This document shows positions 1 through 64,000 of a stretch of 64,000 nt of DNA, one piece after another; position 1 is the stretch's first letter; every line of letters begins with the position of its first letter. The stretch covers positions 2,170,001-2,234,000 of the forward strand of contig JANJGN010000042.1 in assembly GCA_026770705.1 (NCBI GenBank), given 5' to 3'. Source of the stretch: Isurus oxyrinchus. Its lineage: Eukaryota. Position numbers: made by a program.

Positions 1-1377
1 CTTCCCAGCAGCTATGCTTCTTGTGCAGTTGCCTTGATCAATGAGCTTACATTCAATTTGGGCAATTACAGTTCTGCAGAATGATTTTCAGTGAAGACTG
101 ATCTCAGCCGGAGAAATTTTATTTATTGTCATTTTCCATGGCAAAATCCAGGTCTATTGTTAATGATAAAGGAAGGCTCATAGGGAAAGTACCAGGGGAT
201 GAGGAGGTTCCAGAGACTTTGGAATTGTCTGCTACAGAAAACAAGAGGCGGCAGGGGCACTAAATATATTCAAGGCATCGTTAGACAAATTATTGATCGA
301 CAGGAGATCCAATGGTTACTCAGTCTGACAGGAAAACGGAGTTAAGGCCAGGATCACATCAGTCATGAACCTACTGTATGGTGGAGCAGGATTGTTGGGC
401 CGAAACGCTTACACCGACTCTCATCTCTTGTGATCGCAAAGACTTCAAATAACTATCCCGCCATTGTCACAGCTTGTGCCATTTGGCAATAGATTGAAAG
501 AGTATTTAAACGCCCTTTTCAGCTCCGCTTTGTATTTCGTCTGGGTCCCTGCATATAGAAATGTATTGCTACAGGGTCTAAGGAGTTAAAAAACTATCAG
601 CTTTGCTGCAGAATATATTTTGTGTCAATGGAAATGGAACTGATCAGCTATTTCCCATACTTTGTGCAAACAGGAAACGTACAATATGCGTTAAGACCAG
701 CTGGAGGAAACTGCCTGAGATGGAGAAGAGTACAACAATAGACTTGCTGTGGCTCTTCATCTCGGAGCCACTCTGATTCTCTCCATTCCTTTGGGATCAG
801 AGTCTGCTGCAGCATCTACTTGCCAGTAGAATATTTCAGAAAGTCTCAATATCGAGCAGCAAAATCAGGAGAAAGGAGAGACATGGAGTTAGAATACAGT
901 CCAGCCAATCAAATATTCTCCATGGAAATGAAATATAAAATGCATCATCTATGAGAGAGCACCGAGTTATATTGTTAACGATATAAATAGGTTCATTTAT
1001 GAAATAAAAAGGGTGTTTATCAAAGTGGACAGCACACAGATCATTCCTAAATTTCCAGTTGCTGTTTTCTAACTGCAGTATTCCATTTCCAGCTCCTGGT
1101 GACAAATGGCCAGGAAGCAGTAAAAGGTGAATTTGAAGGTTGATCAGAGAGTACAACATTTGGAACCAAAGTTTAAAGCAACAAGGACGACATAGAGGAA
1201 TGCTGGACAGAAAACTGACTGGAAAATAAACAGCTGGAAATGAGCTTAATGTCACGATAATGCTAATGACAAGGAAATCTGTCACCACCATGGATACCAG
1301 ATATTGCGTGATACATCAGGAGAGACCACATATTCCTCTGGAAAAGATCACAATCATTAGAAAGTTAGCTGTAAGGC

Positions 1378-1408
<31 letters not shown>

Positions 1409-60400: not shown

Positions 60401-63400
60401 TTAAATGACTGGCCCAGGGTTTCTTACCTTAGCGGAAACCTGGCACCCTGGGCAGCGAAGAATTCTCAGGGAGCTGAAGTTGGGCTTTAATCCAGGACGT
60501 TTTGACTCTAAAGCTTGACGTCTTTCAATTTAAAAGCAACTGAACCTTAAACTGTGAGTGGATTTCCACCCTGCTGTGAAGGACAGTTGTGTTTGCTGCA
60601 CGTCATCATAACTCAGGAGTTCTAGTTACCCTTTATTTCCTTCCAAAGGAGTTTTTTTTTTCCATTCTTTCTGTTCTCATTTGCTGGATTATGCCCACAA
60701 GAGTAACACTTTGTATTTAATTCCATTCAACGCCATCTACTCAGTTTCTGTCAAATTCTTAGGTCGATTTAGCATTGTGTACCTTTCTTTTTCCAATGTC
60801 CTAGCCTGTTCTTCTCTAAACAACAAGCAAGAGGATACTTGATTGTTTTTCATTTAACTGAGTAACAATGCAGCAACTTGAATATTCACTATAGGACTGA
60901 GCCCGCATTCCTCCTGTAAATCAGCACAGTATTGACAATTTGCTGCATTTTGGAAAGAGTCTTTCTTTCTCCGCTGGAGCATATAAGTCATAGGACTGAA
61001 ATGGGAACATTGCTCTCTTTTCATGACCAATGCTGTATTTGTGAGTTTCTCAACATTTTCTGTTCTATATTCATTTGTCCCCACCGCAAACTTACTGGTT
61101 ATATTCCTCTCCCACAGCTAATTTGGCAGTAATTGCGATCCTGTCTCGAGGAAGATGCGGTCTCACTGGATGTATCACATACTACCTGATGTCCATGGCC
61201 GTGACGGATCTCCTGATCATGATCCTTGCTGTGATGTTAAACCGGATTGTAGGTACATATCTCCCATTCAGTTTCCTCTCCATCACTCCGGCCTTTGCTC
61301 TCAGTCTTGTGTTCATATATGGCGTCAGGGATTCTTCTGTCTGGGTGACAGTTGCTTTCACCTTTGATCGATTTGTAGCCATTGGTTGTCAGCAGCTGAA
61401 AACCAAATATTGCACCACGAAATCAGCAGCTGTGGTCATAGGAACTGTCTGCGTTGTGCATTGTGCTAAAAGAATACCCTTGTACTTTGCTTGTGAACCT
61501 TCTGTTATCACGGACAATACACCCTGGTACTGCAAACTAAAGCCAATATATTATTTGTCACCCGGATGGGTGGCATATGACAGCATAAATGCCGTTTTAA
61601 CCCCTTGTCTCCCATTCGTTCTTATTTTGCTGCTCAATGTTCTGACGGTCAGGCACATTGTTGTGGCCAGTCGAGCCCGCAGAAGACTCCGAGCGCACAG
61701 CAAGAGCGAGAAACAAAGCGACCCAGAGATGGAGAAGAGGAGAAAGTCCATCGTTTTACTCTTTGCCATCTCGGGAAGTTTCATCCTGTTATATTTCCTC
61801 GCTCTTATAACTTTCCTCTACGCACGAATTGCCAGCGTTAGTTATTTCGATGGCTCGAATTTCAATCAATCAAATGTTATACTGGAGGAATGTAGCTTTT
61901 AAGTTCCTGCATCAACCCCATTATTTAGGCAGGTACCCAGAGTAAATTCAGAAAGGAGTTAAAGAATGGTGTGAAATATCCATTGCGTCTGATTGTTAAA
62001 TTTTTTAAATGATGAAAGCAGTGAAATCGAACATGAATTCTACATTATACCCCACCCATTGCTGTTGCTGTACATGTTACATATGGCTTCTACCCGCAGA
62101 AACAGAGTTACCTCCTGCCCGAGGTGTGAATTCAGAATTATGTAACTAAATCTGCATTTTCCCAGTTAGTTTTTATTTTTTGTCCCCTTTCCAGAGCGGG
62201 CCTGGTACATTCCCAACTGCCGCTAAGGTCTCGGGGTGTCTCGACGTTCATTTAGGAGACAAAGTGTCCGACAAAAATGGATAACTTGGCAACAAAGTTT
62301 CACTATTAAATGTAGGAACCTCGCTGTCTCTCCTTCCTATGTTTTGGAACTTGATGGTAGATGGCGCCCTGAAATGGAAACGGACACTGTCCCCACCCAT
62401 TGTTCTATATTGAGCAGGCTCCGCTTCACACTTGAACTCTTTTTCCCATAAACATAGCAAGAGAGAACTGGAGTATTACAGACACAGATAAAGGAAACAT
62501 TTTGTTTGCCTCTTCCATTTGGCAATGGAGGCGAAATCCGCAGAGTCATCATACAGTACAAGTCACACTGGCAACAATCTCCCCTTTTAAATGATTACAA
62601 ATCGCAACTGGCCAGAACAAAAAAAAAAACAAATTTAATGGAAACATTATCTTCACCATCCACAATGCATTATAAAAGTTTATTGCCATCCTGATACAGA
62701 AACAGTAATTAGAATGGAATTGTAGGTTACGCTTCGCAATGACCCCCTTTCCCAATCGTGGATAAATGCTACACACTTGCTATTATTTGGAATTTCCCGT
62801 GTCGTGACTTACACCCACACCGAAAGTCTCAAGACTCAGCATTGCTCTCAGCAGAAAATCCAATTCAAGGCATTCATGCTGTGTACATATTATCATTTGT
62901 TATATCTTCCGATGTTATTTGAAACAAACCGATTGCTCTGCACTTTATAAGGGATTTGACTAAAGGATTAAGTAGCAGAAAAATGCACATGTTGTAGAAG
63001 CTTATGCTCTTGCACTTATCAGGACAATTTGCAAGAGTAATGCCGATTTCAACTGAACAAAGGATGGGAGAGTCTGTCTGTGGCTCATGGCCTCATGAAA
63101 TGTCTTGACCAATCAGAGTCAACATACTTGACTTGAATGTGAACAACGGTTGACAGTTAACTTCCAGTCATCAGGTCATTATCGCATTCTCTATTACAAC
63201 GCCACGAGTAATCCATTTTCACTCGCCCATCAATCATCACTCTCTTCTCACGACGTTTTAAGTGTTGTTCCCTTTGATTTTTTTGTTACTCATGCGAATT
63301 GTCCTGAGGAGTCCAAGATGAAAAGTTTCGAAAGCATGTGTCTTTGATCAGCACTCTCACATTCTGTTCTACCAAACAACGAGTGAGTCCCACGTCAGTG

Positions 63401-64000
63401 GTCCGGAAACTATTGGAGAAAATTCTGAAGGAAAGAATCTACCTTAACTTGGAGAGAGAAAGTTTGATAAGAGATATTCAGCATTGATTTTTCAGAGGTA
63501 GGTCATGCCTAAAAAATTTGACTGAATTTTTGAGGAGGTGACCAGGTGTGTACATGATGGTAGTGCAGTTGATGTAGTTAATACGGATTTCAGAAAAAGC
63601 CTTTGACAAGGTCCCACATGGCAGCCTTATAAATAAGGCAAATACGCATGGGATACATGGTAATTTGAAAAGGTGGATTATAAATTGGCTTAGTTGTAGG
63701 AGACAGAATGTGATGATAGAAGGTTGCTTTGGTGACTGAAAACCCGAGTCCTGTGGTGTACCACAGAGATCTGTGCTGGGTTGCCTATTATTCGTTATTT
63801 ATATAAATGACATAGATGACTATGTGGGGAGTAGGAATAGTAAGGTTGCGGATGACACAAAGATTGGCCAGTTGGTTTACAGTGAGGTTGAGAGGCTTGG
63901 GCTGGAGGAAGATATCGGCGTGGTGGTCAAATGGGCAGATAAGTGGCAGATGGAATTTAACACTGGAAAGCGTGAGGTTATAGACTTTGGAAGGAGTAAT

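What the first reader, a model, noticed from the sequence alone, without database searches (positions are those of the whole stretch)
1293..64000. Probable ~47-kb tandem cassette amplifying GPCRs and V segments together
Seen: at least 15.6 kb recurs in direct orientation at ~47.1 kb offset with scattered substitutions and small indels. Inference: if 1293-48395 is one unit, then gene C, V1 and psi-V2 should recur ~47 kb downstream (V1 copy near 87.6 kb), making the birth-and-death unit a mixed GPCR+V cassette. False duplication of two haplotypes in the assembly remains possible.
Basis: partly seen in the sequence, partly recalled or inferred. Interest (0 to 1): 0.7.

Follow-up and report, generated by a model that had tools for sequence, protein, structure and literature searches.

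The report
Recent 47-kb-spaced duplication, shark TCR-V/GPCR region
A shark or ray genome stretch that mixes orphan receptor genes with T-cell-receptor V segments contains a real, fairly recent direct repeat at least 15.6 kb long, but the window ends before showing whether the V segments were copied too, so this is an ordinary gene-cluster duplication until proven otherwise.

Summary
Window 1293-16925 recurs at 48396-64000 in direct orientation at an offset of 47,103 bp. Identity is 97.1% over 15,672 columns (349 substitutions, 26 indels of 22 bp or less), and the match runs to the window's end.

The differences look biological: CpG-context sites differ five times more often than other sites. 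The window has no N gap.

The left breakpoint is sharp. It cuts exon 2 of a dead GPCR gene that reads across the boundary only in copy 1. Nothing left of 1293 matches the sequence left of 48396.

The organism is an elasmobranch, not human.

A 47.1-kb unit, if real, would hold:
- two intact two-exon class-A GPCR genes (A and C);
- three GPCR relics;
- one open TCR-alpha-like V exon with a weak 23-RSS (V1);
- one V pseudogene.

Only gene A and the GPCR relics lie in the part seen twice, and copy A' is frameshifted. No V is seen duplicated.

A two-copy tandem duplication is the most likely reading (about 0.55). A shorter duplication or a haplotype artefact cannot be excluded here. Multi-gene tandem homology units, and non-TCR genes inside TCR loci, are already known. 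Interest is low to moderate.

The parts
1293..16925 (.). Copy 1, the part visible twice
   Evidence: 97.1% identical to 48396-64000, direct, offset 47,103.
48396..64000 (.). Copy 2, cut off by the window end
1293..48395 (.). Hypothetical 47,103-bp tandem unit. Only its first 15.6 kb is seen repeated.
   Evidence: Inferred from the offset. The extent beyond 16925 is untested.
48395..48396 (.). Novel junction between the unit's end and the unit's start
   Evidence: homology starts abruptly, with at most about 3 bp of possible microhomology; no match between 1-1292 and 47104-48395.
487..1369 (-). psiB, a dead class-A GPCR (exon 2) spanning the left breakpoint at 1293
   Evidence: tblastn with P0003/P0011 gives 29-32% identity, 3 in-frame stops and a frame change between 1369-698 and 585-487. 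No Pfam hit for 839-1315.
48396..48480 (-). psiB' remnant: only the first codons of exon 2 survive in copy 2
   Evidence: (match 48433-48395, ending at the junction). The upper end (48480) is approximate, read from the ORF list.
1208..4885 (.). Older local tandem (1208-2943 against 3119-4885, 78%, period about 1.9 kb). It carries the GPCR relic psiB2 (3134-3304, minus strand) and is repeated in copy 2 at 48427-51965.
12572..12641 (+). Gene A exon 1 (ATG, 23 codons plus 1 nt, GT donor)
   Evidence: The peptide matches the N-termini of annotated homologues.
14033..14901 (+). Gene A exon 2 (AG acceptor, open to the stop); intact class-A GPCR
   Evidence: 7tm_1, 2.8e-22; best 72-73% identity to shark proteins.
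59657..59726 (+). Gene A' exon 1, identical in sequence to A exon 1
   Evidence: sequence identity counted (0 differences over 12573-12641).
61118..61974 (+). Gene A' exon 2, with a 13-bp deletion that shifts the frame before TM7 and gives a premature stop at 61900-61902
26863..27764 (-). Gene C exon 2 (polypyrimidine tract plus AG acceptor, open to the stop)
   Evidence: 7tm_1, 8.8e-18; 78% identity to P0003 over 309 aa.
33035..33131 (-). Gene C exon 1 (ATG, 32 codons plus 1 nt, GTGAGT donor); the intron is 5,270 bp, phase 1
   Evidence: 36 of 41 N-terminal query peptides hit here.
40537..40883 (+). V1: open V exon (40537-40844), heptamer 40845-40851 (4 of 7 consensus positions), 23-bp spacer, nonamer 40875-40883 (8 of 9)
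   Evidence: (V-set, 2e-13). No convincing leader exon was found.
43448..43940 (+). psiV2: good leader exon (43448-43505), but the V exon from 43591 has 2 in-frame stops, the second conserved Cys is lost, and the RSS-like site is degenerate
47850..47948 (+). psiD: orphan GPCR exon-1 relic. ATA replaces ATG and TT replaces the GT donor. It lies about 450 bp before the junction.
   Evidence: 35 of 41 query peptides hit here.

Best explanation
This is a real germline segmental duplication in an elasmobranch genome. The region is one where a large lineage-specific family of class-A orphan GPCR genes is interspersed with T-cell-receptor V segments, probably of the alpha/delta type.

The most likely form is a simple two-copy, head-to-tail tandem duplication of a unit of about 47.1 kb (1293-48395). 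It was made by one non-homologous join of the unit's end to the unit's start, through end-joining or template switching, not by unequal crossing-over between repeats. Since then the copies have drifted apart by about 2.3%.

Shown here: the repeat, its orientation, the sharp junction, the ancestral state of copy 1's left edge, the gene content, and the decay of copy A'.

Inferred, not shown: that the copy runs the full 47.1 kb and therefore carries second copies of gene C, V1 and psiV2.
For: - Repeat and divergence.
- Mutation spectrum typical of germline change rather than sequencing error: 79 of 873 CpG-context sites differ (9.0%) against 270 of 14,691 other sites (1.84%); ts/tv is 207/142.
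- Synonymous divergence in gene A (pS 0.025) equals the non-coding divergence (329 of 14,640, 2.25%).
- The sequence is contiguous across the junction, with no N in the window.
- The junction is sharp and non-homologous.
- psiB reads through 1293 in copy 1 and is truncated at 48396 in copy 2, so copy 1's edge is ancestral and 48395/48396 is the derived join.
- Direct orientation, with the spacing equal to a plausible unit size.
- Tandem duplication of multi-gene 'homology units' of 7-31 kb is the documented way TCR V clusters grow (PMC2685407, passages read; PMC4574546, passages read).
Against: - Only 33% of the proposed unit is visible twice, and no V lies in that part.
- No read depth, spanning reads or second haplotype could be examined.
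- Divergence of 2.2% together with one intact and one broken copy of gene A would also fit two divergent alleles.
- Nothing in the window shows an earlier round of the same cassette.
- The copy could end anywhere beyond 64000.
Confidence: 0.55

Rival explanations
1. A real duplication, but a partial one. A segment of 15.6 kb or more that starts at 1293 and ends before gene C or the V segments was copied and placed 47 kb downstream. Alternatively, a full tandem copy later lost its distal part. In either case only GPCR material, and no V, was amplified.
For: The visible duplicated part contains only GPCR genes and relics. The junction is non-homologous, which suits an insertion as well as a tandem join. 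The orphan exon-1 relic psiD lies about 450 bp before the junction, and no same-strand exon 2 was found between it and A' exon 2 at 61118. Either model would separate psiD from its exon 2 in this way.
Against: Local direct duplicates in V clusters are usually head-to-tail blocks (PMC2685407). No feature in the window marks a right end.
Confidence: 0.25
2. An assembly artefact: two divergent haplotypes of one locus were laid end to end, a false 'heterotype' duplication.
For: Immune and receptor clusters are among the most heterozygous regions. False heterotype duplications arise where haplotypes diverge and can imitate segmental duplications (PMC8081667, passages read). One intact and one frameshifted copy of gene A could be two alleles.
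Against: There is no gap at or near the junction, whereas the same paper describes scaffolded false duplicates as having a gap between them. A divergence of 2.24% plus 26 indels is above the genome-wide heterozygosity of 0.1-1.6% quoted there, although local values can be higher. The junction cuts a pseudogene at a precise point and has unique sequence on its left.
Confidence: 0.15
3. A multi-copy array: three or more 47-kb mixed GPCR+V units extend to the right of the window, forming a recurrently amplified cassette.
For: Nothing direct. It is compatible with the very large size of the GPCR family.
Against: There is no unit to the left of copy 1, and no older cassette-scale homology in 64 kb.
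Confidence: 0.08

Closest known systems
Tandem 'homology units' in TCR V clusters (bovine and human TRB; sheep TRA/TRD)
   Same: These are direct, block-wise duplications of several to tens of kb that carry more than one gene, followed by decay of some copies. This is classic birth-and-death evolution. PMC2685407 reports six units of about 7-31 kb with 1-11 TRBV genes each. PMC4574546 reports TRAV and TRDV1 amplified together.
   Different: The unit here would be larger (47 kb). Its visible part carries GPCR genes, not V segments. The junction shows no repeat-mediated homology, whereas unequal crossing-over between interspersed repeats is what was proposed for cattle.
Non-TCR genes embedded in TCR loci: olfactory receptor genes among the 5' TRAV genes of human, mouse and sheep; trypsinogen genes in TRB
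   Same: GPCR genes lie between V segments. OR10G2 and OR4E2 lie between human TRAV1-1, TRAV1-2 and TRAV2, and three Olfr genes lie between mouse TRAV1 and TRAV2 (PMC4574546). Embedded non-TCR genes are duplicated within the locus: 5, 8 and 20 trypsinogen genes in cattle, human and mouse (PMC2685407).
   Different: The GPCRs here are not olfactory receptors. They belong to an elasmobranch-expanded orphan family. Whether this region is the TRA/TRD locus is inferred from V1 alone. Co-duplication of a GPCR and a V in one event is not shown here.
False heterotype duplication in long-read assemblies
   Same: Two near-identical direct copies in a polymorphic gene cluster (PMC8081667).
   Different: There is no gap between the copies, and divergence is above typical genome-wide heterozygosity. 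Read-level tests could not be made.
GPR139 (the name NCBI gives the relatives of genes A and C)
   Same: Rhodopsin-class 7TM receptors (Pfam 7tm_1).
   Different: Solved GPR139 matches gene C exon 2 only at E 6.3e-4 (22.4 bits). That is weaker than the prolactin-releasing-peptide receptor (1.3e-5) and 5-HT1A. The name therefore does not indicate orthology.

Membership tests
Head-to-tail tandem duplication | The two copies lie in direct orientation | tested here: met
Head-to-tail tandem duplication | Copy length equals the spacing, so homology fills the whole interval | not testable with these tools
   The window ends after 15.6 of 47.1 kb. No eukaryotic genome collection is available here.
Head-to-tail tandem duplication | A single novel junction joins the unit's end to the unit's start, and the flank of copy 1 is ancestral | tested here: met
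   the break is sharp, and psiB is continuous across 1293 but cut at 48396. An insertional copy would show the same feature.
Head-to-tail tandem duplication | Full read depth on both copies, and reads that span the junction | not testable with these tools
   No reads are available.
False haplotype (heterotype) duplication | A gap or contig boundary between the copies | tested here: not met
   no N anywhere in the 64 kb.
False haplotype (heterotype) duplication | Divergence within the range of allelic variation | tested here: inconclusive
   2.24% plus 26 indels, against 0.1-1.6% genome-wide in PMC8081667. The species and its local heterozygosity are unknown.
Germline TCR V gene segment (V1) | V-set Ig domain with the two conserved Cys and the conserved Trp | tested here: met
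   V-set, 2e-13; open 102-codon V exon; conserved residues read from the translation.
Germline TCR V gene segment (V1) | Recombination signal directly 3' of the V exon: heptamer, 23-bp spacer, nonamer | tested here: inconclusive
   the spacer is exactly 23 bp, the nonamer matches 8 of 9 positions, and the heptamer keeps CAC but matches only 4 of 7. The consensus motifs are recalled, not taken from a call.
Germline TCR V gene segment (V1) | Leader exon with ATG and a splice donor upstream of the V exon | tested here: inconclusive
   a hydrophobic stretch and a GTGAGC donor are present. There is no in-frame ATG, and a stop lies two codons before the donor.
TCR alpha/delta V rather than another V type | Closest to alpha-chain V domains | tested here: inconclusive
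   among the 60 listed PDB rows, 7 are named TCR alpha chain, 3 are single-chain alpha/beta constructs, and none is named beta, gamma or delta only; the rest are antibody constructs; an Atlas cluster named 'TVA4 protein'. No tree was built.
GPR139 orthologue | Closer to GPR139 than to other class-A receptors | tested here: not met
   no PDB hit at E<=1e-10. GPR139 scores 6.3e-4, below three other receptor types.
Rhodopsin-class GPCR (genes A and C) | Pfam 7tm_1 above the curated cut-off and an open two-exon reading frame | tested here: met
   (79.9 and 65.1 bits against a cut-off of 30.5).

The most novel reading that the evidence does not exclude
The duplication-prone V region of an elasmobranch TCR locus acts as a nursery for a huge, undescribed orphan GPCR family. 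Mixed GPCR+V blocks would be amplified together repeatedly, so the two repertoires expand and decay as one unit and might share regulation. Because V-to-J joining deletes the DNA between the segments, receptor genes lying in that interval would also be lost from that chromosome in T cells.
Probability: 0.1. Interest if true: 0.6.

Novelty: new member of a known kind. Interest (0 to 1): 0.3.

Why it matters
If the full 47-kb unit is duplicated, this is a clean, datable example of one event copying members of two unrelated receptor families at once, a chemoreceptor-like GPCR and an antigen-receptor V segment. It would sit in a lineage at the base of the jawed vertebrates. It would also show that unrelated genes riding along inside TCR V clusters, known from mammals, is old or recurrent.

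As it stands, the finding documents ordinary birth-and-death dynamics: copy A' is already dead. Perhaps the more interesting by-product is the GPCR family itself. It has about 2,000 clusters in elasmobranchs, and I found no paper on it.

Tried and rejected
- **Unequal crossing-over between repeats as the cause.** Rejected. No homology joins 1-1292 with 47104-48395, even at word size 9 and E<=1e-6.
- **A further unit to the left.** Rejected for the same reason.
- **Genes A and C as start-less pseudogenes.** This was my first reading from the ORF lists. Rejected after finding short first exons with canonical splice sites.
- **psiD exon 1 as the first exon of A'.** Rejected. A and A' have their own exon 1, and psiD has lost both ATG and donor.
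- **Identifying the genome through annotated proteins.** The best hits are only 79% (gene C) and 73% (gene A) identical, so near-identical paralogues could not be counted.
- **V1 relatives.** Only 2 unnamed hits among 3 candidates, too few to classify V1 by a tree.
- **More V segments.** tblastn found none beyond V1 and psiV2. An RSS scan gave 4 loose hits, none behind a V-like frame, and it missed V1's own weak heptamer.
- **Transposon annotation.** One sub-threshold RVT_1 hit (E 1.2e-4, 22.3 bits against a cut-off of 29.6). None of 10 further ORFs matched Pfam.
- **RNA genes.** Rfam gave 0 matches and ARAGORN 0 tRNAs.
- **CpG island at 35-36 kb.** GC is 0.549 but CpG o/e is only 0.50.
- **Literature on the GPCR expansion.** Nothing relevant in four searches or in passages of PMC11979771 and PMC12294341.
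- **Shark heterozygosity figures.** PMC12498223 gave none in the passages read.
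Full report
**1. The observation**

The window has no N and a G+C content of 41%. Self-BLAST at E<=1e-20 left 7 off-diagonal pairs. The dominant one aligns 1293-16925 with 48396-64000 in direct orientation at an offset of 47,103 bp, with 97.1% identity over 15,672 columns. It stops only because the window stops.

A MAFFT alignment of the two copies shows:
- 349 substitutions in 15,566 aligned pairs (2.24%; Jukes-Cantor distance 0.0228);
- 207 transitions and 142 transversions;
- 26 indel events covering 106 columns, the largest being 22, 19, 13, 13 and 8 bp.

Differences are spread along the whole length, at 12-39 per 1000 aligned positions. The longest identical run is 261 bp, so no conversion tract is visible. 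CpG-context sites differ at 79 of 873 (9.0%) against 270 of 14,691 (1.84%) elsewhere. That is the signature of germline methyl-CpG decay, not of sequencing error.

**2. Organism**

The two long GPCR reading frames find about 2,000 relatives:
- gene C: 2,072 proteins at E<=1e-3 among 3,297 candidates;
- gene A: 1,981 proteins at E<=1e-60 among 3,426 candidates.

All 120 listed rows in each call come from sharks or rays. The genera are Heptranchias, Heterodontus, Pristiophorus, Rhincodon, Scyliorhinus, Stegostoma, Carcharodon, Chiloscyllium, Hemiscyllium, Mustelus, Mobula, Narcine and Rhinoraja. Best identities are 79% for gene C and 73% for gene A.

The window is therefore from an elasmobranch whose own proteins are not in the collection. 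It is not human, and nothing here was treated as human.

**3. Gene content of the putative unit**

*GPCR genes.* Pfam 7tm_1 matches three frames:
- 13960-14898, E 2.8e-22;
- 26866-27846, E 8.8e-18;
- 61045-61899, E 3.2e-16.

The frames lack an ATG before TM1, which at first suggested pseudogenes. tblastn with full-length homologues and with 41 distinct N-terminal peptides (taken from 48 of the 120 homologues) showed otherwise. The family has a short first exon.

- **Gene C (minus strand).** Exon 1 is 33131-33035: ATG, 32 codons plus 1 nt, GTGAGT donor. A 5,270-bp phase-1 intron follows. Exon 2 is 27764-26863, with a polypyrimidine tract and AG acceptor. It is 78% identical to P0003 over 309 residues.
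- **Gene A (plus strand).** Exon 1 is 12572-12641 and exon 2 is 14033-14901. Its first-exon peptide matches the N-termini of annotated homologues from whale shark and sevengill shark.

Both genes read open. Gene A ends 13 codons before its relatives usually do.

*GPCR relics.*
- **psiB** (1369-487, minus strand) has three in-frame stops and a frame change.
- **psiB2** (3304-3134, minus strand) lies inside an older 1.9-kb local tandem (1208-2943 against 3119-4885, 78% identity).
- **psiD** (47850-47948, plus strand) is an orphan exon 1 in which ATA replaces ATG and TT replaces the GT donor.

*V segments.*
- **V1** has an open 102-codon V exon at 40537-40844 (V-set, E 2e-13). It is followed by a heptamer that keeps CAC but matches only 4 of 7 consensus positions, an exact 23-bp spacer, and a nonamer matching 8 of 9 (the consensus motifs are recalled). 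I found no convincing leader exon.
- **V1's chain type.** Among the 60 listed PDB rows, 7 are named TCR alpha chain, 3 are single-chain alpha/beta constructs, and none is beta, gamma or delta only. The rest are antibody constructs. An Atlas cluster is named 'TVA4 protein'. The alpha/delta assignment is probable but not proven.
- **psiV2** has a good leader (43448-43505). Its V exon has two in-frame stops, the second Cys is lost, and the RSS is degenerate.

No other V-like segment was found.

*How the spliced models were searched.* Exon 2 alone was used for genes A and C. For one search the query was the contiguous open frame that contains exon 2. The V exon alone was used for V1. No search or fold was made with a joined model.

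**4. The junction**

Homology begins abruptly at 1293/48396. At most about 3 bp could be shared microhomology. In copy 1 the psiB reading frame runs across 1293. In copy 2 it stops at 48396, and the sequence to the left is unrelated. Copy 1's edge is therefore ancestral, and 48395/48396 is the derived join.

Even a relaxed self-comparison (word 9, E<=1e-6; 19 pairs besides the main repeat) finds no match between 1-1292 and 47104-48395. Two things follow:
- The event was not unequal crossing-over between repeats.
- There is no further unit to the left.

The join lies about 450 bp after psiD exon 1. No plus-strand GPCR exon 2 was found between psiD and A' exon 2 at 61118. So the break probably fell in that relic's intron. 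The older 1.9-kb tandem starts only 85 bp from the young breakpoint, next to a (GA)n tract. This may be a fragile spot, but I did not test that.

**5. What the duplication copied**

The visible copy holds psiB' (a stump), psiB2' and gene A'.
- A' exon 1 is identical to A exon 1.
- Over the 282 comparable codons of the two exons, A and A' differ by 12 non-synonymous and 5 synonymous changes. pN is 0.0186 and pS is 0.0249, a ratio of 0.75.
- A 13-bp deletion then shifts the frame before TM7.

The exons were joined only inside that script, for the codon count. At least one copy therefore evolves without constraint. The duplication has not produced a second working receptor in the part we can see. 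No V lies in the visible copy.

**6. Interpretation**

The data fit a real, fairly recent duplication. With an assumed neutral rate of 0.5-1 x 10^-9 per site per year, a distance of 0.0228 means roughly 11-23 million years. The rate is my assumption and comes from no call.

A two-copy head-to-tail tandem of 47.1 kb is the simplest reading. It matches how TCR V clusters are known to grow: homology units of 7-31 kb holding several genes (PMC2685407, passages), and TRAV co-amplified with TRDV1 (PMC4574546, passages). I give it 0.55.

A shorter copy that never included gene C or the V segments gets 0.25. A false haplotype duplication gets 0.15. Neither can be excluded.
- Against the artefact: there is no gap between the copies, and divergence is above the genome-wide heterozygosity of 0.1-1.6% quoted in PMC8081667 (passages).
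- For it: receptor clusters are unusually polymorphic.

The wider claim that a mixed GPCR+V cassette is 'the' birth-and-death unit finds no support in the window. There is no older cassette-scale repeat, and the Vs and the GPCRs are grouped, not alternating.

**7. Comparison with what is known**

GPCR genes among V segments are known from mammals. Olfactory receptor genes lie between the first TRAV genes in human, mouse and sheep (PMC4574546). Trypsinogen genes have multiplied inside TRB (PMC2685407). This finding is a new member of that known kind.

The GPCRs themselves are misnamed. Solved GPR139 matches gene C exon 2 only at E 6.3e-4. That is weaker than the prolactin-releasing-peptide receptor and 5-HT1A, and nothing passes E<=1e-10. 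Four literature searches found no description of this elasmobranch expansion. The catshark sensory-genome paper does not mention it in the passages I read.

**8. What stayed unchecked**

- Everything beyond position 64000.
- Read depth and spanning reads.
- Phased haplotypes.
- The same locus in other elasmobranchs.
- Supplementary tables of shark genome papers, which were closed and might list this GPCR family.

Noticed in passing
window 12572-14901, 26863-33131 and relatives P0001-P0241: The GPCRs belong to a very large elasmobranch family: 2,072 clusters at E<=1e-3 and 1,981 at E<=1e-60. NCBI names them 'probable GPR139', yet they are no closer to solved GPR139 (E 6.3e-4) than to other class-A receptors. 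Four literature searches found no description of the family.
   Followed up: partly
P0005 and P0008; window 29401-29487 and 29777-29878: Some annotated homologues begin with peptides that look like LINE reverse transcriptase rather than the family's short first exon. P0005's first 30 residues also match a plus-strand stretch inside gene C's intron at 29401-29487 (E 0.007), and the start of P0076 matches another at 29777-29878 (E 2e-9); the match positions are. These are probably mis-modelled first exons, because the true exon 1 is only 23-32 codons long and lies 1.4-5.3 kb away.
   Followed up: partly
window 1208-4885 (and 48427-51965): An older 1.9-kb local tandem (78% identity) starts 85 bp from the young 47-kb breakpoint. 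Both breakpoints lie inside psiB exon 2, next to a (GA)n tract. This may be a recurrent breakage site.
   Followed up: no
window 40200-40883: V1 has an open V exon, but its heptamer matches only 4 of 7 consensus positions. No leader exon with an in-frame ATG was found, and a stop lies two codons before the only good donor. It may be a non-rearranging 'ORF'-type V.
   Followed up: partly
window 14859-14901: Gene A stops 13 codons before the usual C-terminus of its homologues (312 against about 325 residues).
   Followed up: no
window 22632-22734, 41310-41408, 46322-46423: A short interspersed repeat of about 100 bp occurs three times at 79% identity. It may be SINE-like. Rfam and ARAGORN found nothing.
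   Followed up: no
window 35001-36000: This is the most G+C-rich kilobase of the window (0.549, CpG o/e 0.50). It has overlapping ORFs of 150-179 codons and no Pfam match. It lies between gene C exon 1 and V1.
   Followed up: no
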